From the NCBI GenBank assembly GCA_965201135.1, contig OZ241751.1, positions 86,706-150,705 of the forward strand: DNA of 64,000 bases, written 5' to 3'. The notes below the pieces were generated by a model that saw only the letters and a list, made by a program, of their open reading frames with translations, ran no database searches and was not told the DNA's origin. The stretch comes from Dehalococcoidia bacterium (GTDB taxonomy: Bacteria; Chloroflexota; Dehalococcoidia; Lucifugimonadales; Australimonadaceae). Position 1 is the stretch's first letter. Each line of letters begins with the position of its first letter. Positions 1,536 to 19,091 of the stretch are shown one piece after another. Position numbers and translations under genes: made by a program.

Positions 1536-1627
1536 GGACGAGAGAGGTCGCCGCGAAGCGGCGGAAGCCGGTACTGCGGCTGCGGACGCCGCGCCGAACG
1601 GCAACGGCGCCACGCTTCCCCCTTGCC

Positions 1628-1652
1628 GTCATTCCCGCGTAGGCGGGAATCT
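1628..1652. repeat. R1 hairpin repeat (GTCATTCCCGCG-TAG-GCGGGAAT)
   Basis: Palindromic TTCCCGC/GCGGGAA stem. The same unit recurs about 40 times in the window. Confidence 0.85.
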
Positions 1653-1687
1653 CGGCCCTTTGAGCGCGCAACGCGCCCGCATCCCTC

Positions 1688-2231
1688 TACGCGCGCCGGC
1701 GAGTTGGGCCATCTTGACTGCCATTACCTCGGCAAGGACCAGATCGTTGGGAGCAAGAGCCGCCGCTACCTCGTGTCCGTGGTGGACGCCTGCACGCGGC
1801 TGGTTTGGGCGGAGGCGGCGGACGACCTGAAGAGCCTGAGCGTGATGTTCGCGGCGCTCAAGAGCCTCAACCTGCTGAACGCGGAGTACGGGATTCGGTT
1901 CGAGGCCGTGTTGACGGACAACGGGGCGGAGGTGGCCTCGCGGGGGAACGTTGAGGGGCATCCGGTGGAGCGGCTGCTGGGGGAGTTGGGGATCAAGCAT
2001 CGCTACACGCGGCCGTACCGGCCGCAGACGAACGGGAAGGTGGAGCGGTTCTGGCGGACGCTGAACGAGGAGTTGCTGGAGGGGACGACGTTCGAGACGG
2101 CGGAGGAGTTGCGTGAGGAGTTGGCGCTCTACCTGCTGTACTACAACACGGCGCGTCCGCATCAGGGTTTGGGGGGCAAGACGCCCCTCCAGGCCCTGCA
2201 GGATCTGTCAACGAATTACTTGACATCTACA
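1688..2231 (+). mobile_element. 5'-truncated IS481-family copy (integrase-core half only)
   Basis: ORF 1623..2243 matches the C-terminal rve/DDE half of the full copy at 62654..63696 (GELGHLDC..RPYRPQTNGKVERF..ARPHQGLGG). It ends in the same terminal IR, TGTCAACGAATTACTTGACATCTACA (2206..2231). The N-terminal HTH part is absent, and the first residues of the ORF are a read-through of an R1 repeat. Confidence 0.8.
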
Positions 2232-2530
2232 ATTCCCGCGTAAGCGGGAACCTACCCCCAAGCGCCCCGTCATTCCCGCGTAAGCGGGAACCTACCCCCA
2301 AGCGCCCCGTCATTCCCGCGTAAGCGGGAACCTACCCCCAAGCGCCCCGTCATTCCCGCGTAAGCGGGAACCTACCCCCAAGCGCCCCGTCATTCCCGCG
2401 AAAGCGGGAACCTACCTCCACTGCCGTCATTCCCGCGAAGGCGGGAACCTACCTCCACTGCCGTCATTCCCGCGAAGGCGGGAACCTACCCCCTCTACCG
2501 TCATTCCGCGAAAGCGAGACCCTACCCCAC
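2232..2530. repeat. Tandem array of about 8 R1 hairpin units (5 x 40-bp period, then 37-38-bp variants)
   Basis: ATTCCCGCGTAAGCGGGAACCTACCCCCAAGCGCCCCGTC recurs at 2232, 2272, 2312, 2352 and 2392. Variant units with a GAAAG/GAAGG loop follow to about 2530. Confidence 0.9.
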
Positions 2531-4621: not shown

Positions 4622-5827
4622 GAGACCTTTGCATAACCTTCCGCAATCGCGCACAATGACCGCAACCCGCAACCGCGAGGAGACTGCTATGCATCTCGAA
4701 GCCAGCGACCCCTCCTTCATCGACGCCTTCCTCCCTTTCAACGCAGGCCGCAACGACCGGCTCGACCGCATCGACCGCCTCATCGATTGGCCCAAAGTCG
4801 CAGCCCTACTCGACGATGTCCACGCCGCGCCCGAAGGACGGCCCGCCTACCGCCCGATCACGATGGTCAAGATCATCGTCCTCCAGCAGTGGTACGACTC
4901 CTCCGACGTCGGCATGGAGGAGGCGCTCCAAGACCGGCTGTCGTTCCGCCGCTTCGCGGAGCTCACGCTGACGGACGCGGTTCCCGACCACTCGACGATC
5001 AGCCGGTTTCGGAAGAAGATCACGGAGCGGGGGCTGGCGCGGGCGCTGTTCGCGGAAGTGAATCGGCAGTTGGAGGCGAAGGGCATGCTGGTGAAGCGCG
5101 GAACGCTGATCGACGCGACGATCATCGAGGCGCAGGCGCGGCGCCCGCATTCGGAGGCTGGAGCGCGGAGCGGAACGGACCCCGACGCCGCGTGGACGAA
5201 GAAGGGGAAGAAGTCGCATTTCGGCTACAAGATGCACATAGGGATGGACGCGGGGTCAGGGCTGGTGCGCGGGGTTGAGTTCACGCCTGCGAACGTTGCG
5301 GACACGGATGTTGCGGACGCGCTGATCATGGGGGACGAAGAGGCGGTGTACGCGGACAAGGCGTATGAGTCGAAGGAGCGTCGTGAGCGTCTGCGGGCGC
5401 AGGGCGTGAAGGATCGGATCATGCATCGGGGGCATAAGCATCAGACGGAGCTGCCGCATTGGCAGCGGCGGCGGAACGGGCTGCTGTCGAAGGTTCGGGC
5501 GCCGGTGGAGCAGGTGTTTGGGACGCTGAAGCGCAGCTATGGGTACTGGCGGGTTCGGTACATGGGGCTAATGAGGAACGAGGCGGAGGCGTTGTTCAAG
5601 GCGCTGGCGTACAACCTGCGGCGCGCGGACGGGTTGAGAGAGGGTTGCGCTGTGCATGGGTAGGGGCGTATTGCGCCCGTTGGGGGTACGAGGCCCTGCG
5701 AAGCCCCTAAATTGGGGGCGAGCAGGGGAGGTGGAGGCCGTTATCGGGGGATTTGGGCGGTTGAATGGCTGATTCCGGGGGCGCGGAACTGCCGATCGCG
5801 CTGATGCGAGGGTTATGCAAAGGACTC
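4622..5827 (+). mobile_element. Complete IS5-family insertion sequence (1206 bp)
   Basis: The TIRs GAGACCTTTGCATAACC (4622..4638) and GGTTATGCAAAGGACTC (5811..5827) match at 16 of 17 positions. Flanking 5-bp direct repeats CTATA lie at 4617..4621 and 5828..5832. The interior encodes a DDE transposase. Confidence 0.9.
4689..5663 (+). CDS. IS5-family DDE transposase (InsH-like N-terminal domain + DDE_Tnp_1)
   Basis: RPAYRPITMVKIIVLQQWY..LSFRRF, LIDATIIEA, HFGYKMHIGMD, AVYADKAY and VEQVFGTLKRSYGYWRVRYMGL. The ATG at 4689 follows GAGGAG; the track ORF starts at a TTG at 4629, inside the TIR. Confidence 0.9.
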   Translation: MHLEASDPSFIDAFLPFNAGRNDRLDRIDRLIDWPKVAALLDDVHAAPEGRPAYRPITMVKIIVLQQWYDSSDVGMEEALQDRLSFRRFAELTLTDAVPDHSTISRFRKKITERGLARALFAEVNRQLEAKGMLVKRGTLIDATIIEAQARRPHSEAGARSGTDPDAAWTKKGKKSHFGYKMHIGMDAGSGLVRGVEFTPANVADTDVADALIMGDEEAVYADKAYESKERRERLRAQGVKDRIMHRGHKHQTELPHWQRRRNGLLSKVRAPVEQVFGTLKRSYGYWRVRYMGLMRNEAEALFKALAYNLRRADGLREGCAVHG

Positions 5828-5932
5828 CTATAAGGGGAGAGGACGCCGCGAACGCGGCGGGAGAGGGTACTGCGTAGACGAGGCGCAGCCTCGTCTACGG
5901 GGGCGGGATTCCCGCCTACGCGGGAATGACGG
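5828..5932. repeat. Right half of the IS-split R2 repeat, a GTAGACGAGG/CCTCGTCTAC hairpin, and R1 (reverse)
   Basis: CTATAAGGGGAGAGGACGCCGCGAACGCGGCGGGAGAGGGTACTG lies at 5828..5872 and GGGATTCCCGCCTACGCGGGAATGACGG at 5905..5932. Confidence 0.8.
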
Positions 5933-6002
5933 GATGGGGCGCGGCGCGGAGAGCGAATGGCGGCGGGCGCGGAGAGAGGGGTAAGATTGCAACGGGGCGG
6001 CG

Positions 6003-6031
6003 TTGACAATATGCGCGGGCGCTGATAGAAA
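6003..6031 (+). promoter_or_regulatory. Putative sigma70-type promoter of surface-protein paralog 1
   Basis: TTGACA (6003..6008), 17 nt, TAGAAA (6026..6031), with TG one nt upstream of the -10. The identical arrangement and flanks recur at 15349..15377 upstream of paralog 3. Confidence 0.5.
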
Positions 6032-6186
6032 GGGGGTGCGCGCTAGACGCGGGGAGGCGAGGTTTGGCCGGAACTGCCCATCGCACCCTATTGCATAATG
6101 GGGCGGAGAGGTTGGACAATAGCGTCTCCTGCCGCGCCTTGCGCCCCGTGCATAGCGGGCAGGCGGTGTGATATAGTAGGGCGAGC

Positions 6187-6446
6187 GTGCGCCGAAACAG
6201 GGGCGCGGGCGCAGGATCAGAGGAACAGCGTCCGGGTAAGCCGGGCGCAAAGGACAACGAGACAGGCGCCGCGTCCAGGGTAAGCCGGGCGCGGAGGGAC
6301 AACGAGACAGGTGCCGCGTCCGGGGCAGCCGGGCGCGGAGGACAACGAGACAGGCGCCGCGTCCGGGGCAGCCGGGCGCGGAGGACAACGAGACAGGCGC
6401 CGCATCCGGGGCAGCCGGGCGCGGAGAACGGCGAGACAGACACCGG
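6187..6446. repeat. Tandem repeat of about 43 bp, 5-6 copies, each with a GC-rich hairpin
   Basis: Units start at 6230, 6273, 6318, 6361 and 6404, with a degenerate copy before 6230. The unit is GTCCGGGGCAGCCGGGCGCGGAGGACAACGAGACAGGCGCCGC, and CCGCGTCCGG..CCGGGCGCGG can pair. Confidence 0.85.
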
Positions 6447-6501
6447 CTCTCGGTGAGAGCGCCAAACCCATAGAGACTACGGCTCCACAAGGGGGGTAGA
6501 A

Positions 6502-9500
6502 GTGAGATTCACGAGGATTCCGCTCATAGCGACACTGCTGGCAGGGGCGCTCTCGCTGCTCGTCGTATTGCCCGCGATTGCCCAGAGCACGCTGGGCGAG
6601 GAGACCGACGGTCGGCTGAACGTGGCCGGCGCGTTAGAGGTTCAGGTCTACCAGAACATCGCGGACATCAGAGCGCGAGGCGTCGCCGCAGCGGACGCGG
6701 ACAGCTCCATCACGGAAGATGACGCGACTTCGCCTAACCCGGACGCTACGCCCCGCACCGCGGTGGAAGGCCCGACCACGACCACCATCGCCCGCGGCGA
6801 CCAGGCGCTGGGCCTGAGGGACAGCAGCGGCGACAACGCTTTCGACTACTCCCGCGTTCCCGACCCCCGGAACACCTACTTCAACCAGAATCTGTACGTC
6901 TCCAACGATGACGACGCGTACAACACGATTCTCATCACCGCTCAGGTCGCCGACTCCCGCGACAACAGCGCCTTGAGGAGACACGACGACGACCCTGACG
7001 GAGTGCCGGGGAACGACGACGACCACGTTGACGACCTGACCACGACGGAAGTGGACGAATCCAACGACGGGTGGGACGACCCCTTGACCGGCGCGGACTA
7101 TGACTGCGTCATTGCGGAGGCGAAGAACACGCGCTCCGGCAGAAAGGCGGAAGTGACGCTCCTCGCGGTGGGAGGCGCGGGCGACAGCGCCGTCCCTGCG
7201 AACTCCGCCGTCTACCAGGGCATTTTGACGGTCTGGGACCGGTCGACGGACCGGGTCGAGGAGCGCAATTCCCGTTGCGACAAGAGGCCGCTCGCCGACC
7301 CCGAGATCCAGCCTGACCCCGACAACCCTATCCCCTGGCGGACGGCCGGCGCCTCCGGCACCCAGCCTGCGGCGGTCGTCGCGGCGCGTGACGGAGACAC
7401 GATCGAGATCACGGTCGAAGGCATCCGGGGCCGGCTGCTGCTCACGGTTGACGGCGACGCCCCCACGGTGACCGGCCTGTCGCCGGAGGACGGCGGCACG
7501 ACGAACAGCGACCGCGTGACGCTCGGCCTCACGGTGAGCGACGACGGCGCCGGCCTGCGCTTCGACAGCGAGGACGGCTCCAGCGGGGACGGCGACTCCA
7601 GCCCCGCCAACGGCGACAACGACCAGAGGTTCAACGAGCCTCTGACCATCGCGGACAGCGACCCGGGCACGGCGGGATGGCAGGCGCCGTCCGGCGCAAC
7701 CTCGACGATCCAAGGCGCGACCGAGGACATTCAGATCTATTACGCGGACGACATCACGGACGGCACGATCGACGACCCCGCCGATGGCCAGGAGCACACG
7801 CTTGGGCATCAGCCGAACGTCCCCGCTCAGGAGTTCTCCGGCTACGGCACCAGCGGCTGGACGCAGGTCGACTTCGGGCGGTCGTACCGCCTCAGCATGG
7901 TCTTGAACAGCCAGGCGTTCGACTCGTATGAGTGGATGGTGGTCGCCCGGGACCGCGTGGGGAACTCCTTCACGACGGACGGCGACGACGACGAGAGCGG
8001 CCCGCAGCCGTTCACGTTCACCTTGGACGACGAGGACCCGACGGTCAACAACGTCCGGACGGGCGTGAAGTTCGACGCGAGCAGTTCCCCTCCGAAGGAG
8101 AAGGCGGACCGCTCGTGGCTTGCGCTGACGGTCGTGAACGAGGAGACCACGGGCACGGCGGACCGGGTTGACCGGTCGTCCGTCGAGGCTTCGGACTTCA
8201 CGGTGTCCGGCGCCACGGTGGTGGAGGCGGTCGTCCCGACGACCAAGAGGGTTTGCAAGACGCAGGACGAGGGCACGGAAGCGGACGAAACCGCGAAGAA
8301 CGTCCTCAACCTAGCCGGCGACTGCTTCTACCCGCGCGCGACGATCTACCTGCGGCTCTCCGAGGAGCTCGAGGCGGACGAGAAGCCGACGGTGCAGATG
8401 CTGGGTGGCGTGTTCAGAGACGTCGCGGGCAATCCGAACGAAGTGAAGCAACTGTCCGGGGCCAGCGTGGAGGACAAGATCGCCCCGCGCGTGTCCATCA
8501 CGGTCACGGCGAGCGGGGAGGCGACGAACCGCCCGGCGACGAACAGCAAGGGCGAGTTCACCATCCGCGTGACCTCCGACGAGGACTTGCGGCGATTCCC
8601 GACGGTCTACTTCGCGGAGATAGACGGGGTGGCCGACGCCGACGACGCAACCGTGGCCACGGGCCTGCAAGTGGACGCCGGCGTTCAGTCCATCACGCCC
8701 ACCGAGTTGGAGCGCAACGTTTGGGAGCGGAAAATCAAAGCCGACTCCGACGACCTTCCCGGCGCCGGTTCGCGGCTGATCGCGGTTCTCGTGGCCGCCG
8801 AGGACGAGGACCAGAACAGGGGCAACAGCGCCGGATGGACGCCGCATGCGACTCTGGGAACCGCGCCCGAAGGCACGAACTTGGACTTCAAGAAACTGGC
8901 GGACGGCGGCTACCTGATCGAGATTGACAACGCGCTGGCGGTCCCCGCCTCGGCGAACGTCACGGTGCAGCCGGCCGTCGAAGGCGAGTCGAAGGTCACG
9001 GAGAGCCTGACGCCCTACGTGGAGATCAAGTTCGAGGGAGAGAAGAACGAGTACGGCATCGCCGCCCGCGCTGGAGACGGACCCTTCTACAAGGCCGACG
9101 CCGGCGACGACGAGGACCCGATCAAGACGGACTCCCACGAGGGCGTAACGCTCACGAAACTGACCGTGGACGGCGAGGACCGCCTGGCCGACGTCCGGCG
9201 CGTGGGCTCCGAAAAGGGCCGGTTCATCCTGGCCTTCGTCGAGGGCTTGTCCCTCGGCAAGCACACGGTCGTCTACGCGGCGAAGGACGACGTCGGCAAC
9301 GAGTTCTCCGCGAACTCCGCCGGCGCGAAGGAGCGCAGTTTCTCCTTCACGGTTCGGGCGCGCGCCGGCTACAAAGTGAACATCCGGCCGGGCTGGAACC
9401 TGATCTCGCTGCCCGGCACGCCGACCAACCCCGCGGTTTCGGCGGTGCTGGAAGGCTTGCAGGCGAACACGGCCCTGTCCTACCAGAACGGCGAATGGCT

Positions 9501-9900
9501 GAGTGCCCTTCGCGGAGAAGACGGCGAGTGGCAGGGCACGCTCGAGCAGATCGCGGGCGGCTACGGCTACTGGATTCAGACCACCGCCGCCGAGACGATC
9601 ACCACGGTGATTCCGCCCACGCTGCCGAACCAGGTGCTGCCCACCGTGCCGATCACGTCGGGCTGGAACCTGGTGGGCGTGATTGACGCCGGGCAGAGGA
9701 GCGCAGGCACGACGCAAGACCCGGACAGGTACTTCGTCAACGTGAGTTGGCGGGTCGCCTACGGGTTCGACACGGCGGGCAGCCGCTGGACGAAGATCCT
9801 GCCGGCGCCTTCGACCGACGACAACCTCAACGACTCCGCCATCGCCAACGGCAAGGGCTACTGGCTCTGGAGCACGGAGCCCGGGACGCTGGTCCCGTAA
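6502..9900 (+). CDS. Giant secreted acidic surface protein, paralog 1 (S-layer-like; Ig-like repeats; conserved C-terminal domain)
   Basis: GTG start after AAGGGGGGTAGAA. Signal peptide MRFTRIPLIATLLAGALSLLVVLPAIAQ. SbsA-type Ig motifs are present (FRDVAGNPNE, ARDRVGNSF, AKDDVGNEF). The C-terminal blocks are PGWNLISLPG, YQNGEW, GGYGYWIQT, GWNLVGVID and NGKGYWLW..PGTLVP. Confidence 0.8.
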   Translation: MRFTRIPLIATLLAGALSLLVVLPAIAQSTLGEETDGRLNVAGALEVQVYQNIADIRARGVAAADADSSITEDDATSPNPDATPRTAVEGPTTTTIARGDQALGLRDSSGDNAFDYSRVPDPRNTYFNQNLYVSNDDDAYNTILITAQVADSRDNSALRRHDDDPDGVPGNDDDHVDDLTTTEVDESNDGWDDPLTGADYDCVIAEAKNTRSGRKAEVTLLAVGGAGDSAVPANSAVYQGILTVWDRSTDRVEERNSRCDKRPLADPEIQPDPDNPIPWRTAGASGTQPAAVVAARDGDTIEITVEGIRGRLLLTVDGDAPTVTGLSPEDGGTTNSDRVTLGLTVSDDGAGLRFDSEDGSSGDGDSSPANGDNDQRFNEPLTIADSDPGTAGWQAPSGATSTIQGATEDIQIYYADDITDGTIDDPADGQEHTLGHQPNVPAQEFSGYGTSGWTQVDFGRSYRLSMVLNSQAFDSYEWMVVARDRVGNSFTTDGDDDESGPQPFTFTLDDEDPTVNNVRTGVKFDASSSPPKEKADRSWLALTVVNEETTGTADRVDRSSVEASDFTVSGATVVEAVVPTTKRVCKTQDEGTEADETAKNVLNLAGDCFYPRATIYLRLSEELEADEKPTVQMLGGVFRDVAGNPNEVKQLSGASVEDKIAPRVSITVTASGEATNRPATNSKGEFTIRVTSDEDLRRFPTVYFAEIDGVADADDATVATGLQVDAGVQSITPTELERNVWERKIKADSDDLPGAGSRLIAVLVAAEDEDQNRGNSAGWTPHATLGTAPEGTNLDFKKLADGGYLIEIDNALAVPASANVTVQPAVEGESKVTESLTPYVEIKFEGEKNEYGIAARAGDGPFYKADAGDDEDPIKTDSHEGVTLTKLTVDGEDRLADVRRVGSEKGRFILAFVEGLSLGKHTVVYAAKDDVGNEFSANSAGAKERSFSFTVRARAGYKVNIRPGWNLISLPGTPTNPAVSAVLEGLQANTALSYQNGEWLSALRGEDGEWQGTLEQIAGGYGYWIQTTAAETITTVIPPTLPNQVLPTVPITSGWNLVGVIDAGQRSAGTTQDPDRYFVNVSWRVAYGFDTAGSRWTKILPAPSTDDNLNDSAIANGKGYWLWSTEPGTLVP

Positions 9901-9922: not shown

Positions 9923-9949
9923 GCGCCCCCTCCCGCGCGGAGGGGGCGC
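9923..9949 (+). terminator. GC-rich hairpin after paralog 1 (no U-tract)
   Basis: GCGCCCCCTCC-CGCGC-GGAGGGGGCGC, 23 nt after the stop codon. Confidence 0.4.
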
Positions 9950-10038
9950 GGAAAGCGCAGAGAGACGCGCCAACTACCGGCTCTCAAACGCGAGAGCGCC
10001 AAAACTTAGAGCCTACAGCTCCATCAAGGGGGGTAGAA

Positions 10039-12945
10039 GTGAGATTCACGAAGGTTCCGCTGATAGCGACACTGGCGGCAGGGGCGCTCTCGCTGCTCGT
10101 CGTCTTGCCCGCGCTCGCGCAGAACGACACGCGAGGGCGGATCATCGACGGCAACAACTTCATGGTGGAGGTGTTCAAGACGCGCGCGGACGCCACGGAC
10201 TCGACCGACCCCGTGGCCGCCCCGTCGACGACGTACTTCAACGGCGTCCTCTACGCCTCGAACGCCAACGGCGTCGAACGCGACCCCGACGAGAACTCGG
10301 ACGCCGAAGCCGACCTCTCGGAGATCGCCAACCTGCTCAAGGTCACGGTCAACGTCGCCGAAGACGACCAAGAAGACTTGACCGACCCGGACGGCAACGA
10401 GGTTAAGTGCGTCGAAGTGATAGTGACGAACCGGCGGAGCGGACAGAAGAGCACGGCGCGCGCCCCGATCACGGACGACGGGTCCACCACCTTTTTGGAC
10501 GAGCGCTTTGCGCTGTTCGAGGTGATCCCCTACGGCCAGGAGAACAGGAACTCGGCCGGCTGCTGGTCGGCGGCCACCACCCCCGCTTCCGGCACCGTGG
10601 ACAAGGCGGTGGCGCAGATCACGGCGCGCGACGGCGACGTTCTGCGCGTTACGGCGACGGGAGCCATCGGCTCCGCCGACCTCACGGTCGACGGCGAGGG
10701 CCCCGTGTTCACCGAGATATCCCCCGCCCACAAGTCCTACAGCAGTTCCACCTCCTCCCGCTTCCAGTTCACCGTCACCGACAGCGGCTCCGGCCTCCGG
10801 CACGACGGCGAGTTCACGTATGGGGAAGGGGACCTTGACCCCGAGAACGAGGACAAGGACAGGGACGGCATCCGGGGCAACGAGCCGCTCTCGAGGGACC
10901 GCGACTCCGGCTCGCTGGGAGAAGCCGCGGACATTGCGTTGGAGTTGCCGGTCGGCGACGCCAACAACCAACTCAACTTGGGAACGAACCGCTGGCGCCG
11001 GATCGAGGTCGGCAGGTCGTACTCGATGGACGTGAGCCTCGCGTTGACGGAAGGCGCCAACGAGTGGAAGTTGGAGGCGACCGACCGCGTCGGAAACACC
11101 ACGGAGACCAGGGACCAGAACTCGGACGCGAGCGGCTACCAGGGCTACAGAATCACCGTGGACACCGGCAAGCCGGTCCTCTCCGACGCCCGGACGGGCA
11201 TCGCCTTCAGCGAAAGCAAGAAGAAGGAAGTGGTGGACCGCTCGTCCGTCGCCGTCACGCTTCAGGACGGGCAGGCGGGCGGCGACGAGAGTCTGAGCGC
11301 GGTCGACCACAACGACTTCCGCGTCGCCGGCCACGCGGTCACGGGCGCCAGCCTGATCAGCCTGTCCGCCGACTGCGACGACGACACCCCCACGCCGACC
11401 GACTTGGGCGGAACCTGCATCGAGAACCCGAAGGCGCGCGTCTACCTGCAACTGGCCGACGAACTCGAGCCGGACGAAACCCCCGAAGTGCAGATCCTCG
11501 GCGGAGCGGTCATCGACCTCGCCGGGAACTCCAACGACCCCGGCAAGTTCGTGTCGGCCGACAAGATCGCCCCGAGTCTGACCGTGACGATCAACCCCGG
11601 CTCGGAAGCCTCCGGCCGGCCGGCCATCCGCAAGACGGGCGAGGTCGCCATTCGCGTGGTTTCGGACGAGGACCTGCGCCGCCGCCCGTCGGTCTACTTC
11701 GCCACGATGAAGAACATCGCAACCAAGACTGCGGCGGACATCAGGATCGAACTCGCCCGCGCGGGCGGAAACATCACCGCGCAGACCGCCGCGAACACGT
11801 GGGAGCGCGTCTACCGCGCCAACGCGCAAGGACTCTCCGGAACGGACGGCCTCGTCGCGGTCGTCGTGTTCGGCCAAGACGACGCCGGCAACACCGGCTC
11901 CTCCGACGGCGTAACGCTCGGGTCGGACGGCGTCCCCACCGTCGACGACAAACTCAAACTCGACGACCTCGTCGCGGGCGCCCTCCTCATCGAGGTGGAC
12001 GACAACCTCCCGAACCCGACCTTCGCGCTCTCCCCCTACCTCGACAGCGACAACCAGACCAAGACGGAGAGTTCGCGCCCGTTCATCACGATAGAGTTTG
12101 CGGAAGCGAACGAAGCCGTCTACGACGTGGGCGCCACGGACGCCGACTCGGACGAGAACGTCACGAAGGTTCGCCTCTCCGACGACGACGACGACATTGA
12201 GTTGGACTCCCACAAGGGCGTCCGGATCACGTCGGTGACGCTGGACGGCGAGAACGTCTCGGACGACCTCTCCGCGATCAGTTCCCGCAAGTACACCCTG
12301 GCCACCAGCGGACTCTCCGTCGGCAGGCACACGCTGCGCGTGACGGCCGCGGACGACGCGGGGAACGTCAACGCGAAGAAGGACTTCAACTTCGACGTGC
12401 AGGCGCGGCGCCCCTACGAGTTGAAACTCACGCCGGGCTGGAACCTCGTCTCGCTGCCCGGCACGCCGACGGACTCGACCGTCGGCGCCGTGACCAGCGG
12501 CGTCCCGCAGGCCAAGATCGTGCTGTCCTACCAAAACGACGCGTGGACCACCGCGGTCCGCGTCGAGGACGGCGGCTGGCAGGGCACGCTCACCGACATC
12601 GTCGGCGGCTACGGCTACTGGATCCAGACCACCGCCTTCGAGACGCTCAGGACCTCCATCCCGGAGACGGACACATCCTCGGTGCTCCCGACGGCGCAAG
12701 TCTCGACGGGCTGGAACCTGCTCGGCGTCGTGGACGTCGAACAGGCCAAGGCCGGAAACGCCCCGAACGGCGGCGGCGACGCCGACGACTACTTCTCCAA
12801 CATCCGCTGGAGCGTCGCCTACTCCTACGACACCCGCCAGAACGACTGGACGCGCATCCTGCCGAGCGGCGCCAACAGCGACGCCATCTCGAACGGCAAG
12901 GGCTACTGGGTCTGGGCCACCGCCCCCGGCACGCTCGTCCCGTAA
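10039..12945 (+). CDS. Giant secreted acidic surface protein, paralog 2
   Basis: Same RBS, GTG start and signal peptide (MRFTKVPLIATLAAGALSLLVVLPALAQ). Motifs TDSGSGLRHDGEF, ATDRVGNTT, VIDLAGNSND and AADDAGNVN. The C-terminal domain (PGWNLVSLPG .. GGYGYWIQT .. GWNLLGVVD .. NGKGYWVW..PGTLVP) matches paralogs 1 and 3. Confidence 0.8.
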   Translation: MRFTKVPLIATLAAGALSLLVVLPALAQNDTRGRIIDGNNFMVEVFKTRADATDSTDPVAAPSTTYFNGVLYASNANGVERDPDENSDAEADLSEIANLLKVTVNVAEDDQEDLTDPDGNEVKCVEVIVTNRRSGQKSTARAPITDDGSTTFLDERFALFEVIPYGQENRNSAGCWSAATTPASGTVDKAVAQITARDGDVLRVTATGAIGSADLTVDGEGPVFTEISPAHKSYSSSTSSRFQFTVTDSGSGLRHDGEFTYGEGDLDPENEDKDRDGIRGNEPLSRDRDSGSLGEAADIALELPVGDANNQLNLGTNRWRRIEVGRSYSMDVSLALTEGANEWKLEATDRVGNTTETRDQNSDASGYQGYRITVDTGKPVLSDARTGIAFSESKKKEVVDRSSVAVTLQDGQAGGDESLSAVDHNDFRVAGHAVTGASLISLSADCDDDTPTPTDLGGTCIENPKARVYLQLADELEPDETPEVQILGGAVIDLAGNSNDPGKFVSADKIAPSLTVTINPGSEASGRPAIRKTGEVAIRVVSDEDLRRRPSVYFATMKNIATKTAADIRIELARAGGNITAQTAANTWERVYRANAQGLSGTDGLVAVVVFGQDDAGNTGSSDGVTLGSDGVPTVDDKLKLDDLVAGALLIEVDDNLPNPTFALSPYLDSDNQTKTESSRPFITIEFAEANEAVYDVGATDADSDENVTKVRLSDDDDDIELDSHKGVRITSVTLDGENVSDDLSAISSRKYTLATSGLSVGRHTLRVTAADDAGNVNAKKDFNFDVQARRPYELKLTPGWNLVSLPGTPTDSTVGAVTSGVPQAKIVLSYQNDAWTTAVRVEDGGWQGTLTDIVGGYGYWIQTTAFETLRTSIPETDTSSVLPTAQVSTGWNLLGVVDVEQAKAGNAPNGGGDADDYFSNIRWSVAYSYDTRQNDWTRILPSGANSDAISNGKGYWVWATAPGTLVP

Positions 12946-13016
12946 GCTCCGCGCAGCCTCCCCGCGCAGCCCCCAACGCGGGACTGCCGCAGCCCTCGAC
13001 GGACTGCGAAAAGGAA

Positions 13017-13040
13017 GCCCCCGCCGACATCGGCGGGGGC
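13017..13040 (+). terminator. Rho-independent-type terminator after paralog 2
   Basis: GCCCCCGCCG-ACAT-CGGCGGGGGC followed by TTTCCCTTT. An identical hairpin follows paralog 3. Confidence 0.65.
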
Positions 13041-13075
13041 TTTCCCTTTGAGGCGCGGCGAGCGCGCCCCATACA

Positions 13076-13198
13076 GGCGCGCAAGCGCCGAATCCCCCCT
13101 CTCCCTATAAGGGGAGAGGACGCCGCGAACGCGGCGGGAGAGGGTACTGGGAGCGCCTCGCCCACCATGGCCGTCATTCCCGCGTAGGCAGGAATCCC
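13076..13198. repeat. Repeat mosaic R3-R2-R1, left flank of darTG
   Basis: GGCGCGCAAGCGCC lies at 13076..13089. R2 (CCCCTCTCCCTATAAGGGGAGAGGACGCCGCGAACGCGGCGGGAGAGGGTACTG) lies at about 13095..13149. R1 lies at 13173..13198. Confidence 0.85.
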
Positions 13199-13232
13199 GC
13201 CCCTGATAACCTAGAACCAGAGAGGAGACGCT

Positions 13233-13874
13233 ATGCCCGTTCCGGCCAACCCGAAGATCTACCACATCGTTCACATAGACCGGCTGCCGTCCATCATCGC
13301 GGACGGCTTCTTGTGGAGCGATGCCGAGGCGACCCGGCGCGGCGCGCCCGGCACGACGATTGGCATGGACAAAATCAAGCGGCGGCGCCTGAACGAATTG
13401 CAGTTGGAGAGCCACGCAGGGTTGCACGTGGGCGAATGCGCCCCGTTCTACTTCTGTCCGCGCTCCGTGATGCTCCACCGAATCCATATGGGGAACGACT
13501 CTGAACTGGCCTACCAAGGCGGGCAGGGCCCAATCGTTCATCTGCAGGCCGACCTTCGCCAAGCCGTTGCTTGGGCGGACTCAAAGGGTCGCCGATGGGC
13601 GTTCACAGCCTCCAGTGCCGCCTCCTATCGCTTTAAGGATTACTGCGATTTGTCTCAATTGGACAAGGTTGACTGGAACGTGGTGGGGGCTCGCTTCTGG
13701 CAAGGCTTCCGCGATGCGAAGCAAGCGGAATTCTTGATGGAGCGTTCCTTCCCGTGGGAACTTGTCGAGTTCATCGGCGTCCTCTCGCCGGAGATCCGTG
13801 ATAGAGTGCGGGCGGCGATGCTAGGAGCGGGACATCAGCCCGTTGCGGCGATAATGCCGGGCTGGTACTACTAA
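13233..13874 (+). CDS. darT: DarT toxin (DUF4433 family; ssDNA thymidine ADP-ribosyltransferase)
   Basis: 213 aa with IYHIVHIDRLPSI, APFYFCPRSVMLH, AKQAEFLMERSFPWELV (catalytic Glu context) and C-terminal PGWYY. SD GAGAGGAG lies upstream. Confidence 0.85.
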   Translation: MPVPANPKIYHIVHIDRLPSIIADGFLWSDAEATRRGAPGTTIGMDKIKRRRLNELQLESHAGLHVGECAPFYFCPRSVMLHRIHMGNDSELAYQGGQGPIVHLQADLRQAVAWADSKGRRWAFTASSAASYRFKDYCDLSQLDKVDWNVVGARFWQGFRDAKQAEFLMERSFPWELVEFIGVLSPEIRDRVRAAMLGAGHQPVAAIMPGWYY

Positions 13875-13889
13875 GGAGAGGCTGCGCCG

Positions 13890-14945: not shown

Positions 14946-14947
14946 CC

Positions 14948-15105
14948 GTCATTCCCGCGTAGGCGGGAATCCCGCCCCCATTGAGTCGCCCGCCCAATTG
15001 GAGGCGCGCAAGCGCCCAGATCCCCCTCTCCCTATAAGGGGAGAGGACGCCGCGAACGCGGCGGGAGAGGGTACTGCGGTCGGGGCGCAACGCGCCCCGT
15101 CTCCA
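14948..15105. repeat. Repeat mosaic R1-R3-R2-R4, right flank of darTG
   Basis: R1 at 14948..14973, R3 at 15003..15016, R2 at 15022..15077 and an R4-like hairpin at 15081..15099. Confidence 0.85.
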
Positions 15106-15123
15106 TGTATCCCCCGGGGCCTC

Positions 15124-15273: not shown

Positions 15274-15348
15274 CCCAAGCGCCGCGCCCGCCGATAGCGT
15301 AGAATCTCCCCCGCGCCCCAGCCGCGCGAGGTTGCAGGGCGCAAGGCG

Positions 15349-15377
15349 TTGACACGGACGCCAATTGCTGATAGAAA
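15349..15377 (+). promoter_or_regulatory. Putative sigma70-type promoter of surface-protein paralog 3
   Basis: TTGACA-17 nt-TAGAAA with TG one nt upstream of the -10. It is followed by about 100 nt conserved with the paralog 1 leader (GGTTTGGCCGGAACTGCCCATCGCACCCTATTGCATAATG..GACAATAGCGTCTCCTGCCGCG). Confidence 0.5.
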
Positions 15378-15587
15378 GGGGTTGCGCGTTTGCGCGGGAG
15401 GGCGCGGTTTGGCCGGAACTGCCCATCGCACCCTATTGCATAATGCGGGCGTTAGGTTAGACAATAGCGTCTCCTGCCGCGTTCGGCGTCCGCCCAACGC
15501 GCGCGCAAGTTGGAGAAACACGAAGGAACCTTGCTCCCCAGGCGGGAGCGCGCAGCCTAGAACCACAGCTCCGTAAGGGGGGTAGAA

Positions 15588-18500
15588 GTGAGATTCACGA
15601 AGATTCCGCTCATAGCGACACTGCTGGCAGGGGCGCTCTCGCTGCTCTTCCTGTTGCCCGCGTTCGGCCAAACCTCCGGCGAGATCGAACGAACGGAAGG
15701 CAGGGTGACCTCAGGCGACCTCCAAGTCGGCGTCTACGAGAACCTCGCGGACGCCAAGGTGGCGAAACTGGTGGAGGACACCTATCCCCCCTCCGCCAGC
15801 AAGGGCGACGCTGGCAGCAGAACGTTCTACCGCCCCCCCACCACAGCCACTGAGGCCACGGGAGGGCTTTCGGGCGTCAACGTCGGCAGTGAGATTGTCT
15901 CAGGTCTGGTCGCCGGCGCGATGAGGACCGCGGACCCCGCTTACGGGATCAGCCCGTACACCGCCACGCGCAACACCTTCTTCGACTCGTCGCTCTACAT
16001 CGGCGGCGGGAAGACCGGCAGTTACAACACGGCGCTCATCACGCTCCGCACCGACCTGGTCGCCGACGCTTGCGACGCCGGCACGGACGACCCCGATACT
16101 GCAGTAGACGAGTCCACGCTTCCCGATGCCGCCGCGGACTACCCGGTCGCCAAGGTCACCAACCCCAGCCGCGGCTACGACATTGACGTTCCGCTGGCTC
16201 CCGCCGCCTTCCCGGAGGACTCCACCCCGTTTATTTCAGGCCAGACCGGATACGGAACCTCGCCCACCGAGACCTACGTTCAGGCGTTCTTCAATGTCGT
16301 GGACGACACGGACGACTCCTTGTCCCGCGCGGACAAGATGGTGGACGGCCCCAACTGCTTCTACTACGCGAGGGCGAACGGGAGCATGGAGTTCGGCCAG
16401 ATCGGGGCGCGCCACGGCGACCGCCTGACTGTCCGCATCACCGGCCAGGCCAGCAACATCAGCCTCATCGTCGACGCCGAAGGCCCCGAGATCAACCTGA
16501 TTAGCCCGGTCGACACGAGCGTCGTCAAGTCGAGCAACCTCTCCTTCCGCTTCGACGTCCGCGACCCCGACTCCGGCCTCCGCCACGACGGCGAGTACAC
16601 GCTGAGCAACGACGGCGACCCCACCTCCGTCAACCCCGACCGCGACGCCAACCGCGGCTCCGAGCCCCGCTCCGAGTCGGCGCCTAGCCTCTTCGGCGTC
16701 GGCAACGGCAAAGCCGCCGACATCCAAGCCGTCTACTGGAGCATCGAGAACACCCAAACCTCCGACGTCAGCGACCGCCTCACCGACTCCGTCCGCGACA
16801 CCCAAGCGGGCGGCATCGACATCACCGACCAGGGCAGGTGGGCCATCATCGGCGGTCGCGCCGGAGTCGGCTACTCCTTCTCGGCGACGGGCAACAACTT
16901 CGACTCCGCCAAGAACGCGCTGCAGTTCACCGCGACGGACCGCGTCGGGAATATGACCACCTCGGACGCGGACCTGGAGCGGACCGGGAACCAGCCCTAC
17001 ATCTTCGAAGTGGACGACAATAAGCCCACCATCGAAAACATCGACGTTCGCACGGGCATCTCCTACGACAACTCCGACAGCGAGGAGGAGGTGAACCGCT
17101 CCGCCATCGCCCTCAAGTTCAGCGAGCCGATCAAGTCCGGCGACATCGCGGTCAGCCGCATCACGGTCGCGGGCAACAGCGTCACGGGCGTCATTCAGCC
17201 TAACGGCGCGCCGATCGTCTACCGCGCGCAGTCGGGCGACGCGGATCCCGCCGACTGCACGCTCGACGAGCGCGTGTCGCAAGACCACGACGACAATCCT
17301 GACACCCCCAACGTCATGGTCGCCAACCCGAACAAGTGCCCCGGCACGGACATTCAGGACGAGAAGATCGCCGACACGCGCAGCCTCGTGTTCCTGCAGT
17401 TGGAGGACGCCCTCGAGGCGGACGAGGATCCTGCGGTGACGCTGCTTTCCGGCGCCGTCCAAGACCTCGCCGGCAACTCCGTGAACACCACCTCGCTGGA
17501 GTCGGAAGACTGGATCGCGCCCACGCTCACGGTCTCCGTGACCGGAACCAAGGGCGACCGCCCGGTCGCCAACGATGACGGCGCGTTCGTGATCGCAGTG
17601 ACTTCGGACGAAGACCTGAGCGGGCGCCCCCGCGTGGTGTTCGCGGAGATCAGGGCGACGGCCAACGCCGCCGATGCCGACAACCCATACTCGTACTCCG
17701 TCGGGCCCGACATCTCCAACGAAAGAGACTGCAACCTCACGCCAGATGAGACCGACCGCTCTTGGAGCCGCTCCTGCGGAGTGGGCGAGCAGATCGTGGA
17801 CGGCATAACCGGAATGGTCGGCGTGTTCGTTTTGGCGAAGGACGAGGACGACAACCTCGCCGTCGTGCCCACGCGGTGGACCCCCCAAGGCGATCCGCCC
17901 CCGAACACCCCCGGCCACCGCGCGGCGGGCTCGCCGCCGAAGCCGATTGATGGCAACGCGGTTGACGTCCAGGAACTCCAGGACGCCGGCCTGCTGATAG
18001 AGATCGACAACATCTTCAACTCGGACGGCGAAGACGCGCCCGCGCAGCAAGACCCGACCGAGAGCGTCACGCCGCAGAGCGGCGACGACGCGAAGAAGAC
18101 GGAGAGCCCCAACCCGTTCATCCACATCGACTTCGAGGGCGAGGCGTCCGAATACGACCGAGGGGACTTCAAGGACTCCCACGGCACGGTGACGATCACC
18201 GAGATCAAGTTGGGCGACGACGACGCGACGGACCGCCTGAGCCGCGTGGACAGGGACGAGTTCTCCATAGTGCTCCGCGACCTCGCGGTCGGCAAGTACA
18301 CGCTGACCTACAAGGCCGAGGACGACGCGGGGAACGAGTACAACAACGGCGAGTTCAAGTTCGAGGTGCTCGCGCGCAAGCCCTACAAGGTGAACGTCAA
18401 GCCGGGCTGGAACCTGATCTCGCTGCCGGGCGCTCCCGAAAACTCCGGCATCGCGGACGTGCTCTCCAGCACAGAATTCCTCACCCCCGTGCTCGCCTAC

Positions 18501-18965: not shown

Positions 18966-18999
18966 GCGCCGAGCGCGCAAACGCGAAAGCGAAAGAGAA

Positions 19000-19023
19000 G
19001 CCCCCGCCGACATCGGCGGGGGC
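19000..19023 (+). terminator. Rho-independent-type terminator after paralog 3
   Basis: GCCCCCGCCG-ACAT-CGGCGGGGGC followed by TTTCTCTTC. Same hairpin as 13017..13040. Confidence 0.65.
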
Positions 19024-19091
19024 TTTCTCTTCGCCCCCCGCGCGGCGCTTGCGCCCCTCGCCACAAGCGCCCGCGCCCGCGGGCGTCGGAT

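What the first reader, a model, noticed from the sequence alone, without database searches (positions are those of the whole stretch)
6003..6501. Conserved promoter plus structured leader shared by paralogs 1 and 3 but absent from paralog 2
- Both upstream regions carry TTGACA-17 nt-TAGAAA at 6003..6031 and 15349..15377.
- About 100 nt of near-identical sequence follows. It begins with a GC hairpin near the predicted 5' end.
- The conserved sequence is GGTTTGGCCGGAACTGCCCATCGCACCCTATTGCATAATG .. GACAATAGCGTCTCCTGCCGCG, in which CTATTG and CAATAG can pair around a variable loop.
- The predicted 5' UTRs are long: about 460 nt for paralog 1 and about 205 nt for paralog 3.
- Long, stable, structured leaders are a known property of S-layer mRNAs.
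- Conservation of the leader while the coding regions diverged suggests a cis-regulatory RNA or a protein-binding site. I cannot match it to a known riboswitch.
- Paralog 2 has only the shared roughly 45 nt around the RBS, so it may depend on read-through past the hairpin at 9923..9949.
Basis: partly seen in the sequence, partly recalled or inferred. Interest (0 to 1): 0.55.

Follow-up and report, generated by a model that had tools for sequence, protein, structure and literature searches.

The report
Conserved promoter-leader of envelope-protein genes
A conserved promoter and roughly 100-nt transcribed leader sit in front of large secreted surface-protein genes in uncultured SAR202-type Dehalococcoidia; the element is real, specific to this gene family and absent from Rfam 15, but it is an ordinary kind of thing, an expression-control region for probable S-layer genes.

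Summary
TTGACA-17-TAGAAA, with a TGn extended -10, lies at 6003-6031 and 15349-15377. It is followed by a block about 89% identical, although the two downstream proteins share only 33% of residues.

It is not a dispersed repeat. A scan of 185,579 species genomes found the core only in Dehalococcoidia/SAR202/Chloroflexi MAGs, at 1-3 copies per chromosome. Every hit with enough flanking DNA lies 169-431 nt upstream of the GTG start of a member of this protein family.

All 30 distinct leaders keep the promoter hexamers while the spacer sequence varies freely. Between clades the core is 89% identical. Linkers, loops and the P3 hairpin are only 23-29% identical.

Compensatory changes support three hairpins: the 5'-terminal hairpin P1, a small hairpin presenting CCUGCC, and a hairpin upstream of the RBS (P4).

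Paralog 2 and eight analogous genes elsewhere lack the module. Each lies 128-190 nt behind another family gene, so they are operon-internal.

Best reading: a sigma-70-type promoter plus a 5' UTR with a protective 5' hairpin, an invariant core read by an unknown factor or fold, and a shared translation-initiation module. There is no Rfam match. This is a new member of a known kind, of moderate interest.

The parts
6003..6031 (+). Promoter of paralog 1: -35 TTGACA (6003-6008), 17-nt spacer, extended -10 TGa-TAGAAA (6023-6031).
   Evidence: Read directly. The same architecture, with a spacer of 17 or 18 nt and free spacer sequence, is present in 30/30 distinct leaders located only through CCTATTGCA. 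The tool's own scanner rejects it because position 6 of the -10 hexamer is A rather than T.
6037..6052 (+). P1: GC hairpin at or within about 3 nt of the predicted 5' end of the paralog-1 transcript (GCG C ... G CGC).
   Evidence: The helix is kept in 27/27 leaders. One pair changes on both sides (U-A 19, C-G 5, U-G 3) and several change on one side between U-A and U-G.
6061..6137 (+). Invariant core of the paralog-1 leader.
- GGTTTGGCCGGAACTGCCCATCGCACCCTATTGCA (6061-6095).
- A variable loop that always contains GGGC.
- GGTTGGACAATAG (6110-6122).
- A small hairpin, GCGT/GCGC, presenting CTCCTGCC (6122-6137).
   Evidence: 26 of 35 core columns are invariant across three clades. Identity between clades A and B is 89% for the core, against 23-29% for linker, loop and P3. 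The small hairpin has two pairs changed on both sides (A-U/G-C, U-A/C-G).
6138..6439 (+). Segment of the leader specific to paralog-1-type genes. It includes a TGaTATAGT motif resembling an extended -10 (6169-6177) and a 43-nt hairpin unit repeated 4.9 times (6228-6439).
   Evidence: Tandem repeat. Orthologous leaders carry two units (L004) or one (L015). This segment is similar only among paralog-1 orthologs: 48-73%, against 25-50% to paralog-3 types (region B).
6440..6558 (+). Translation-initiation module of paralog 1.
- P4 hairpin GCTCTC-GGT-GAGAGC (6446-6460).
- GCTCC (6482-6486).
- SD AAGGGGGG (6489-6496).
- GTG start (6502).
- Codons 2-19.
   Evidence: All family genes share it, including the leaderless ones. 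P4 covaries (GCUCUC/GAGAGC, GCUCCC/GGGAGC, GCCCCC/GGGGGC) and its loop varies freely. Codons 2-19 are almost invariant at synonymous sites and use rare codons.
9923..9949 (+). Hairpin GCGCCCCCTCC-CGCGC-GGAGGGGGCGC between paralog 1 and paralog 2, with no U tract after it on the + strand.
   Evidence: A hairpin in the same place but with an unrelated sequence (CCCCGCGGAGG/CCTCCGCGGGG) separates gene 1 from gene 2 in clade B loci.
9970..10095 (+). Translation-initiation module of paralog 2. There is no promoter and no core.
- P4 at 9980-9997.
- SD at 10026-10033.
- GTG start at 10039.
- Codons 2-19.
15349..15377 (+). Promoter of paralog 3: -35 TTGACA (15349-15354), 17-nt spacer, extended -10 TGa-TAGAAA (15369-15377).
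15382..15397 (+). P1: 5'-terminal hairpin of the paralog-3 leader (TTGCGC-GTTT-GCGCGG).
15406..15482 (+). Invariant core of the paralog-3 leader.
- GGTTTGG...CCTATTGCA (15406-15440).
- Variable loop.
- GGTTAGACAATAG (15455-15467).
- CCUGCC hairpin (15467-15482).
   Evidence: The covariance model scores this copy at 117 bits.
15483..15644 (+). Remainder of the paralog-3 leader.
- Variable hairpin P3.
- AAGGAAC.
- P4 GCTCCC-CAGGC-GGGAGC (15533-15549).
- SD (15575-15582).
- GTG start (15588).
- Codons 2-19.
13016..13050 (+). Terminator-like hairpin after paralog 2: AAGCCCCCGCCG-ACAT-CGGCGGGGGCTT, then TCCCTTT.
   Evidence: A near-identical element follows paralog 3 at 18998-19032 ([I4] and 66). 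Nothing equivalent follows paralog 1.
18998..19032 (+). Terminator-like hairpin after paralog 3.
   Evidence: (I4).

Best explanation
The element is the expression-control module of each transcription unit of a lineage-specific family of secreted surface proteins. These proteins are about 1000-1200 aa, built from multiple beta-sandwich domains, and are probably the S-layer or envelope proteins of SAR202-type Dehalococcoidia that lack peptidoglycan.

The module has three parts.
1. **Promoter.** A sigma-70-type promoter, TTGACA-17/18-TGnTAGAAA.
2. **5' leader of about 100 nt.** It starts with a GC hairpin (P1) at the very 5' end. By analogy with other 5'-terminal stem-loops, P1 protects the mRNA from 5'-end-dependent decay. 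An almost invariant core of about 75 nt follows. Its sequence, rather than just its pairing, is under selection. I infer that the core is read as RNA by a dedicated trans-acting factor or folds into a specific tertiary structure, for example a CUAUUG/CAAUAG plus GCCC/GGGC pseudoknot with a CCUGCC loop. Either way it would set mRNA stability or translation.
3. **Translation-initiation module, about -80 to +57.** It comprises the P4 hairpin, GCUCC, a strong AAGGGGGG Shine-Dalgarno, a GTG start and 19 codons frozen at synonymous sites. Every family gene carries it.

Paralog 2 lacks parts 1 and 2 because it is co-transcribed with paralog 1 through a hairpin that has no U tract.

**Shown:** conservation, family specificity, promoter architecture, and covariation in P1, P4 and the CCUGCC hairpin.
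**Inferred:** transcription start, stabilising role, the partner of the core, and S-layer identity.
For: - **Family specificity.** All 20 core matches in GTDB species genomes are in Dehalococcoidia/SAR202/Chloroflexi MAGs, at 1-3 per chromosome. Each lies 169-431 nt upstream of a VRFT[KR]IP.. family start codon; one more is cut by a contig end.
- **Covariance model.** It hits 29 leaders and nothing else in 321 kb of loci. In the window it hits the two leaders and nothing else.
- **Promoter.** Both hexamers and the TGn are kept in 30/30 leaders. The spacer is 17 nt in 22 and 18 nt in 8, and its sequence varies freely.
- **Mosaic conservation.** Identity between clades is 89% for the core and 23-29% for linker, loop and P3.
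- **Conservation against background.** The 131-nt module is 80-99% identical among clade A leaders. The 120 nt upstream are 37-61% identical and the CDS 51-70%. The paralogous proteins are 33-35% identical.
- **RNA-level signals on the + strand.** Compensatory and G-U-tolerant changes occur in P1, the CCUGCC hairpin and P4. 98.5% of cells are paired, against 19-60% when partners are slid.
- **Operon logic.** 9/9 leaderless family genes follow another family gene. The intergenic hairpin has no U tract. T-rich terminator-like hairpins follow only paralogs 2 and 3.
- **Constraint reaching into the CDS.** Codons 2-19 are invariant at synonymous sites and use rare codons: AGA 4%, ATA 8%, ACA 2%, GCA 4%, in a genome with GC3 of 0.88.
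- **Protein context.**
  - The proteins have a signal peptide.
  - The AlphaFold2 model is a chain of beta-sandwich domains. Its Foldseek hits include the S-layer proteins 8c8r, 4uj6 and 4aq1.
  - SAR202 lack peptidoglycan and show an S-layer-like coat (PMC10444878).
  - Long stabilising 5' UTRs are documented for Lactobacillus slp genes (PMC3666127).
Against: - No transcription data exist, so the start site and the leader are predictions.
- The -10 hexamer TAGAAA lacks the usually essential T at position 6, and the consensus scanner does not call the promoter.
- The paralog-3 leader is not thermodynamically unusual (z = +0.15).
- The central CTATTG/CAATAG stem has no covariation and about 0 predicted probability.
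- The compensatory changes amount to only about 4-6 independent events, mostly differences between clades.
- Invariance of the core fits recognition of DNA as well as of RNA.
- 20 of the loci were retrieved with a pattern taken from the core, which inflates its apparent invariance. Against this, 12 independently retrieved leaders (L001-L005, L027, L032, L034-L036) also carry the core.
- Foldseek TM-scores are low (0.1-0.16) and hit generic multi-Ig proteins as well, so the S-layer identity is unproven.
Confidence: 0.6

Rival explanations
1. The paralog-1/paralog-3 similarity is mainly a by-product of recombination. The shared 5' region (promoter, leader, signal peptide) would be a homology block kept uniform by gene conversion. 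It could serve as the substrate for shuffling or switching surface-protein genes, as the conserved 5' regions do in Campylobacter fetus sap and Lactobacillus acidophilus slpA/slpB.
For: - Paralog leaders in the same genome share derived states in the 5' module.
  - Window paralogs 1 and 3, and the close relative L001, have GCACCC where all others have GCATCC.
  - L003 and L004, from one 3.16-Mb chromosome, share GGGTGGA and GCGCCTCC.
  - L015 and L024, from one chromosome, share TCTCTTGCC and the P1 variant GCGTGTTTGAC.
- L015 paralog 1 is 91% identical to L024 paralog 3 but only 86-87% to other paralog-1 leaders.
- Downstream of the core the leaders sort by paralog type (region B), so homogenisation would be confined to the 131-nt module.
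- Multiple S-layer paralogs with silent or alternative expression are common (PMC3666127).
Against: - Gene conversion within a genome cannot explain 89% identity of the core between clades whose linkers and loops are saturated at 23-29%.
- It also cannot explain the covariation in the hairpins.
- Each unit has its own complete promoter, so no promoter sharing or silent cassette is involved.
- All three window genes are in the same orientation, with no invertible segment.
- Window paralog 1 is not closer to window paralog 3 (83%) than to other paralog-1 leaders (85-86%).
Confidence: 0.15
2. The invariant core acts as DNA. It would be an operator downstream of the start site, bound by a dedicated transcription factor that represses or activates the surface-protein genes. 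The RNA hairpins would be incidental.
For: - The core is conserved as sequence, not as covarying pairs: 26 of 35 columns are invariant.
- It contains an inverted repeat, CTATTG...CAATAG, and two direct CTGCC motifs.
- Thermodynamic folding does not favour the proposed central stem.
Against: - The half-sites are 30 bp apart centre to centre, which is unusual for a dimeric regulator.
- The only natural variant of the repeat (L003, CAATAG to TAATGG) changes two of six bases. Both changes keep RNA pairing through G-U and would break DNA symmetry.
- The flanking hairpins show G-U-tolerant changes specific to the + strand.
- Sequence-level constraint continues into the 5' UTR and the first 19 codons, which points to function in the mRNA.
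Confidence: 0.15
3. The core is the aptamer of an undescribed riboswitch, or some other ligand- or temperature-sensing RNA, that couples synthesis of the surface protein to a metabolite. The P4/GCUCC/SD region would be a translational expression platform.
For: - A highly conserved core flanked by variable helices, in a 5' UTR, is the typical appearance of a riboswitch.
- The SD can alternatively pair with GCUCC, with the 5' arm of P4 (CUGCUCUC/GGGGGUAG), or with the core CUGCCC.
- Predicted SD accessibility is low, about 0.27-0.3.
Against: - There is no Rfam match even at E up to 10.
- There is no terminator in the leader.
- No alternative pairing is supported by covariation.
- The downstream genes encode structural proteins, with no obvious metabolite logic.
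- The leaderless second genes use the same SD module without any aptamer.
Confidence: 0.07
4. The block is one more of the dispersed intergenic repeats (REP- or MITE-like) that litter this genome, and sits upstream of two paralogs by chance.
For: The surrounding intergenic DNA is full of dispersed and tandem repeats.
Against: - There are only two copies in 64 kb and 1-3 per complete chromosome.
- The copies are always at a fixed distance and orientation upstream of this gene family.
- There are no terminal inverted repeats or target duplications.
Confidence: 0.02

Closest known systems
Long stabilising 5' UTRs of S-layer genes, such as Lactobacillus acidophilus slpA and L. crispatus slpB (reviewed in PMC3666127). 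Aeromonas vapA and Thermus slpA leaders are cited from my own knowledge.
   Same: - A strong promoter is followed by a long 5' UTR.
- The UTR begins with a stem-loop in front of a very large secreted envelope protein gene.
- Several paralogs occur per genome.
   Different: - There is no sequence or Rfam relationship.
- Here the leader contains a core of about 75 nt that is nearly invariant across clades. That points to specific recognition rather than generic stabilisation.
- The overall fold of the paralog-3 leader is not unusually stable (z = +0.15).
- mRNA half-life and S-layer identity are untested.
Conserved 5' regions shared by S-layer paralogs in antigenic-variation systems: Campylobacter fetus sapA homologs (from my own knowledge) and L. 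acidophilus slpA/slpB inversion (PMC3666127).
   Same: - Divergent surface-protein paralogs share a conserved upstream and N-terminal block.
- There are signs of homogenisation between copies within a genome.
   Different: - Each transcription unit has its own promoter.
- There is no invertible element and there are no silent cassettes.
- The genes are in direct orientation.
5'-terminal stem-loop mRNA stabilisers, such as E. coli ompA hp1 and B. subtilis aprE and ermC leaders (from my own knowledge).
   Same: A GC hairpin starts within about 0-3 nt of the predicted 5' end and is maintained by compensatory changes.
   Different: Neither the 5' end nor the decay pathway is known in this uncultured lineage.
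Orphan cis-regulatory leader motifs and riboswitch candidates in Rfam.
   Same: - It lies in a 5' UTR.
- A conserved core is flanked by variable helices.
- It is restricted to one gene family.
   Different: - It matches none of the 4227 Rfam 15 models.
- The core helices lack covariation.
- The controlled genes are structural, not metabolic.

Membership tests
Sigma-70-type bacterial promoter (extended -10 class) | -35 hexamer close to TTGACA | tested here: met
   TTGACA is exact in 30/30 leaders.
Sigma-70-type bacterial promoter (extended -10 class) | Spacer of 17 +/- 1 nt | tested here: met
   The spacer is 17 nt in 22 leaders and 18 nt in 8. Its sequence is not conserved.
Sigma-70-type bacterial promoter (extended -10 class) | -10 hexamer TATAAT-like, with A at position 2 and T at position 6 | tested here: not met
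   TAGAAA matches 4 of 6 positions and has A rather than T at position 6. The consensus scanner therefore reports no promoter.
Sigma-70-type bacterial promoter (extended -10 class) | TGn immediately upstream of the -10 hexamer | tested here: met
   cTGa/cTGg precedes TAGAAA in 30/30 leaders.
Sigma-70-type bacterial promoter (extended -10 class) | Mapped transcription start 6-8 nt downstream | not testable with these tools
   No transcriptome data are available.
Stabilising 5' UTR of an S-layer gene | The downstream gene encodes the S-layer protein | tested here: inconclusive
   - The proteins have a signal peptide, and the model is a chain of beta-sandwich domains.
- Foldseek hits include the S-layer proteins 8c8r, 4uj6 and 4aq1, but with TM-scores of 0.1-0.16 and among generic Ig proteins.
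- There is no clear Pfam, NCBIfam or PDB sequence match.
- A Wzy_C gene lies next to paralog 3.
Stabilising 5' UTR of an S-layer gene | Long 5' UTR with a stem-loop at the 5' end | tested here: met
   The predicted UTRs are about 204 and about 464 nt. P1 begins at the predicted +1 to +3 and covaries.
Stabilising 5' UTR of an S-layer gene | Unusually long mRNA half-life that depends on the UTR | not testable with these tools
   This needs an experiment.
Riboswitch or other known Rfam cis-regulatory family | Match to a curated covariance model | tested here: not met
   Nothing reaches the gathering threshold, and only noise appears at E up to 10.
Riboswitch or other known Rfam cis-regulatory family | Conserved core held by covarying helices | tested here: inconclusive
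   The flanking hairpins covary. The helices inside the core are invariant, so they are uninformative.
Riboswitch or other known Rfam cis-regulatory family | Expression platform: a terminator, or a helix that sequesters the SD and alternates with the aptamer | tested here: inconclusive
   There is no terminator in the leader. Several possible pairings with the SD exist, but none is supported by covariation.
Dispersed intergenic repeat (REP/MITE) | Many copies at unrelated loci | tested here: not met
   There are 1-3 copies per chromosome, always upstream of this gene family.
S-layer antigenic-variation cassette system | Paralogs share a conserved 5' block | tested here: met
S-layer antigenic-variation cassette system | A single promoter or expression site, with promoterless silent cassettes or an invertible segment | tested here: not met
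   Every unit has its own promoter. The only promoterless genes are operon-internal, and the genes are co-oriented.

The most novel reading that the evidence does not exclude
The nearly invariant core of about 75 nt (GGUUUGGCCGGAACUGCCC-U-GCAYCCUAUUGCA ... GUUGGACAAUAG-hairpin[CCUGCC]) would be a new class of cis-regulatory RNA. It would be either the operator of a dedicated RNA-binding regulator, possibly the envelope protein or its secretion/assembly machinery acting in feedback, or a pseudoknotted sensor. It would set S-layer output in Dehalococcoidia that lack peptidoglycan, and gene conversion would keep the copies uniform within a genome.
Probability: 0.25. Interest if true: 0.65.

Novelty: new member of a known kind. 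Interest (0 to 1): 0.45.

Why it matters
SAR202-type Dehalococcoidia are abundant in the deep ocean and in sponges, are barely cultivated, and lack peptidoglycan. Their protein coat is therefore their cell wall.

- This module marks the genes that are probably the major envelope proteins.
- It gives a concrete promoter and 5' UTR for a phylum in which almost no expression signals have been characterised. It could be tested or used as an expression tool.
- It offers a compact, sharply bounded RNA/DNA element whose trans-acting partner can now be sought.

It does not overturn anything. Long structured leaders and multiple paralogs are expected for S-layer genes.

Tried and rejected
1. **Third copy at 5785-5799.** The covariance model finds nothing there. 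A similar string forms the 3' end of an unrelated gene in other loci.
2. **Sigma-54 promoter in GGTTTGGCCGGAACTGCC.** The GG-to-GC spacing is two bases too short (read by eye; inference).
3. **Leader peptide or antisense ORF.**
   - The ATG in the paralog-1 loop is absent or quickly stopped in other leaders.
   - Indels that are not multiples of three occur inside the block.
   - The minus-strand ORFs 5828-6490 and 15186-15671 are treated as high-GC artefacts.
4. **Long-range pairing of GGUUUGGC with GCCAAACC upstream of the SD.** It is present in paralog-1 and clade B leaders but absent from clade A paralog-3 leaders.
5. **Core CUGCCC pairing with SD GGGUAG.** RNAalifold chose it, but it is invariant and has about 0 probability in single-sequence ensembles. 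It stays a speculation.
6. **Attenuator or terminator in the leader.** None was found.
7. **Exact-product look-up of paralog 1.** It is not on record.
8. **JGI metagenome scan with the RBS 24-mer.** Only 6 hits, which added little diversity.
9. **Sequence-based annotation of the proteins (Pfam, NCBIfam, PDB).** Essentially empty.
Full report
**1. Observation**

- TTGACA-17 nt-TAGAAA lies at 6003-6031 and at 15349-15377.
- Both copies also carry TG one base upstream of the -10 hexamer. This is the extended -10 signature.
- The following block, 6048-6136 versus 15393-15481, is 90% identical without gaps (family D18). blastn extends the similarity to 6021-6136 at 88.8%.
- The 31-nt core occurs exactly twice in the 64-kb window, against 0.00 expected.
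- The downstream genes are 6502-9900 (1132 aa), 10039-12945 (968 aa) and 15588-18965 (1125 aa). As proteins they are only 33-35% identical.
- Paralog 2 shares only the block next to the start codon.

**2. Who carries it**

The proteins have no informative Pfam, NCBIfam or PDB sequence match. They do have about 180 homologs, all in Chloroflexi/Dehalococcoidia metagenome assemblies.

I scanned one genome per species (185,579 species) for the pattern GAACTGCCCNTNGCANCCTATTGCA.
- There were 20 hits, all in Dehalococcoidia, SAR202 or 'Chloroflexi bacterium' MAGs.
- Each complete chromosome has 1-3 copies.
- Every hit with enough flanking DNA lies 169-431 nt upstream of a GTG start that opens VRFT[KR]IP[LI]IATL..., which is a member of this family.

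A covariance model built from 27 leaders (R1) finds the two window copies at 117 and 115 bits, with the next hit at 13.7 bits. In 321 kb of related loci it finds 29 leaders and nothing else.

The element is specific to this gene family.

**3. Promoter**

I located 30 distinct leaders using CCTATTGCA alone.
- All 30 have TTGACA, a spacer of 17 nt (22 leaders) or 18 nt (8 leaders) whose sequence varies freely, then cTG[a/g]TAGAAA.
- Conserved hexamers with a free spacer at fixed length is the pattern expected of a real sigma-70-type promoter.
- The caveat is that TAGAAA lacks the T at position 6, so the consensus scanner reports nothing.
- The TGn motif is the likely compensation. This is an inference from what is known of extended -10 promoters.

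**4. Anatomy of the leader**

Three clades of leader are available.
- Clade A: the window, L001-L004, L015 and L024.
- Clade B: most other loci.
- Clade C: L032 and L033.

Conservation is a sharp mosaic.

| Region | Identity between clades A and B |
|---|---|
| P1 | 74% |
| Linker | 23% |
| Core GGTTTGG..CCTATTGCA | 89% (26 of 35 columns invariant) |
| Loop | 29% |
| GTTGGACAATAG plus CCTGCC hairpin | 78% |
| P3 hairpin | 29% |

Within clade A, the 131-nt stretch from promoter to CCTGCC is 80-99% identical whatever the paralog type. The 120 nt upstream are 37-61% identical. The CDS is 51-54% identical between paralogs and 61-70% between orthologs.

One caveat on ascertainment: 20 loci were fetched with a pattern taken from the core. 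However, 12 leaders fetched through proteins or through the RBS also contain it (L001-L005, L027, L032, L034-L036). L009b shows a natural variant, CCT for CCC.

**5. Structure**

Three hairpins are supported by compensatory change.
- **P1**, at the predicted 5' end. One pair occurs as U-A in 19 leaders, C-G in 5 and U-G in 3. Several others switch between U-A and U-G.
- **A 4-bp hairpin presenting CCUGCC.** It switches between A-U and G-C, and among U-A, U-G and C-G.
- **P4**, about 45 nt upstream of the start. It occurs as GCUCUC/GAGAGC, GCUCCC/GGGAGC and GCCCCC/GGGGGC, with loops that vary freely in length and sequence.

Overall, 98.5% of cells are paired, against 19-60% when the partners are slid. 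The G-U-tolerant changes fit the + strand only.

The number of independent events is small, roughly 4-6. The evidence is therefore real but modest.

- It is invariant except in L003, where TAATGG keeps pairing through two wobbles.
- An alternative extension of the stem fits the data equally well.
- RNAalifold does not select it.
- Partition functions give it a probability of about 0.

Every otherwise variable loop keeps GGGC, which could pair with the invariant GCCC of the core. Together with CUAUUG/CAAUAG this would form an H-type pseudoknot. That is an idea, not a finding.

The paralog-3 leader is not unusually stable (z = +0.15). The paralog-1 leader is (z = -2.89), because of a 43-nt hairpin unit repeated 4.9 times. 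That unit is present twice in L004 and once in L015.

**6. The shared 3' module and paralog 2**

All 39 distinct family starts share a module that runs from about -80 to +57.
- It contains P4, GCUCC, the SD AAGGGGGG and a GTG start.
- Codons 2-19 are almost invariant at synonymous sites, whereas from codon 20 synonymous sites vary freely.
- The frozen codons include rare ones: AGA (4% of Arg codons), ATA (8% of Ile), ACA (2% of Thr) and GCA (4% of Ala). Genome GC3 is 0.88.

Nine family genes lack the promoter and the core. Each sits 128-190 nt behind another family gene.

The spacer contains a strong hairpin with no U tract on the + strand: 9923-9949 in the window. In clade B an unrelated sequence forms the equivalent hairpin.

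T-rich terminator-like hairpins, nearly identical to each other, follow paralog 2 (13016-13050) and paralog 3 (18998-19032), but not paralog 1.

**7. Gene conversion**

Paralog leaders within the same genome share derived states in the 5' module.
- Window paralogs 1 and 3 share one.
- L003 and L004, which lie on one chromosome, share others.
- L015 and L024, which lie on one chromosome, share others.

Downstream of the core the leaders sort by paralog type.

Some concerted evolution of the 131-nt module is therefore likely, and it contributes to the paralog-1/paralog-3 similarity. It cannot explain the invariance between clades.

**8. Protein context**

An AlphaFold2 model of paralog 3 has a mean pLDDT of 68. 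It is a chain of beta-sandwich domains.

Foldseek hits multi-Ig proteins. These include the S-layer proteins of Nitrosopumilus (8c8r) and Geobacillus (4uj6, 4aq1), but TM-scores are low.

A Wzy_C (O-antigen-ligase-like) gene follows paralog 3.

Cultivated SAR202 lack peptidoglycan genes and show an S-layer-like coat (PMC10444878).

An S-layer or envelope role is plausible, not shown.

**9. Comparison with known systems**

No Rfam 15 family matches, even at E up to 10.

The closest known system is the long, 5'-hairpin-stabilised UTR of S-layer genes. In L. acidophilus slpA and L. crispatus slpB the long UTR underlies mRNA half-lives of about 15 min (PMC3666127).

The resemblance to antigenic-variation cassettes is limited to the shared 5' block. 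Here every unit has its own promoter and nothing is invertible.

**10. Verdict**

It is a new member of a known kind.

The unexplained and most interesting part is the nearly invariant core of about 75 nt. It implies a specific partner or fold that these tools cannot identify.

Noticed in passing
window 6228-6439: A 43-nt GC-hairpin unit is repeated 4.9 times inside the paralog-1 5' UTR. Orthologous leaders carry two units (L004) or one (L015). It is a variable-number tandem repeat within a leader, and it accounts for the extra stability of the paralog-1 leader (z = -2.89).
   Followed up: partly
window 6169-6177: The motif TGaTATAGT resembles an extended -10. It is conserved in the three paralog-1-type leaders (L004 TGGTATAGT, L015 TGATATAGT). 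It may be a second, downstream promoter, as is often seen for S-layer genes.
   Followed up: no
window 6505-6558, 10042-10095, 15591-15644: Codons 2-19 of all 39 distinct family genes are nearly invariant at synonymous sites. They use rare A/T-ending codons (AGA, ATT, ATA, ACA, GCA) in a genome with GC3 of 0.88. From codon 20 onward synonymous sites vary freely.
   Followed up: yes
window 13233-14945: A darT (ssDNA ADP-ribosyltransferase) gene and a macro-domain darG gene, forming a toxin-antitoxin pair, lie between paralog 2 and paralog 3. The same pair is in the syntenic locus L001.
   Followed up: no
window 2232-2528, 15123-15274, 5900-5931, 13168-13203, 14940-14978, 19182-19213: REP-like palindromic repeats (GTCATTCCCGCG-nnn-GCGGGAAyC) occur singly and in tandem arrays: 40 nt x 7.7 and 61 nt x 2.5. 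They fill the intergenic DNA here and in all related genomes.
   Followed up: no
window 5798-5872, 13075-13149, 15002-15076, 19072-19146, 19237-19311: A second dispersed repeat, CCCTATAAGGGGAGAGGACGCCGCGAACGCGGCGGGAGAGGGTACTG, is itself a hairpin. It flanks the paralog genes in five copies.
   Followed up: no
window 1623-2243 and 4629-5663: An integrase-core (rve) fragment and a DDE_Tnp_1 transposase lie just upstream of paralog 1. The paralog-1 ortholog in L004 has a different upstream neighbour, so this side of the locus has been rearranged.
   Followed up: no
window 13016-13050 and 18998-19032: Nearly identical terminator-like hairpins (AAGCCCCCGCCG-ACAT-CGGCGGGGGCTT plus a T-rich tail) follow paralog 2 and paralog 3. 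So the 3' ends of the two transcription units are also a shared module.
   Followed up: partly
window 9923-9949; L034 5887-5917; L035 4890-4918; L031 7795-7822: The hairpin between the first and second family genes is conserved in position and strength. Its sequence in clade B is unrelated, and no copy has a U tract. It may be a processing, stabilising or partial-termination site that sets the ratio of the two proteins.
   Followed up: partly
window 19392-21485: A 697-aa Wzy_C (O-antigen-ligase-like) membrane protein lies directly downstream of paralog 3, and also in L001. It is a candidate glycosyltransferase for the surface protein.
   Followed up: no
window 5785-5799: The string GGAACTGCCGATCGC mimics part of the core, 285 nt upstream of the real one. 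The covariance model does not support it as a copy. A similar string ends an unrelated neighbouring gene in clade B loci.
   Followed up: yes
window 30305-30558 and 43477-43657: Long imperfect tandem repeats of GCGT(N)GGCGT-type units, with periods of 18, 30, 60 and 66 nt. I did not examine them.
   Followed up: no
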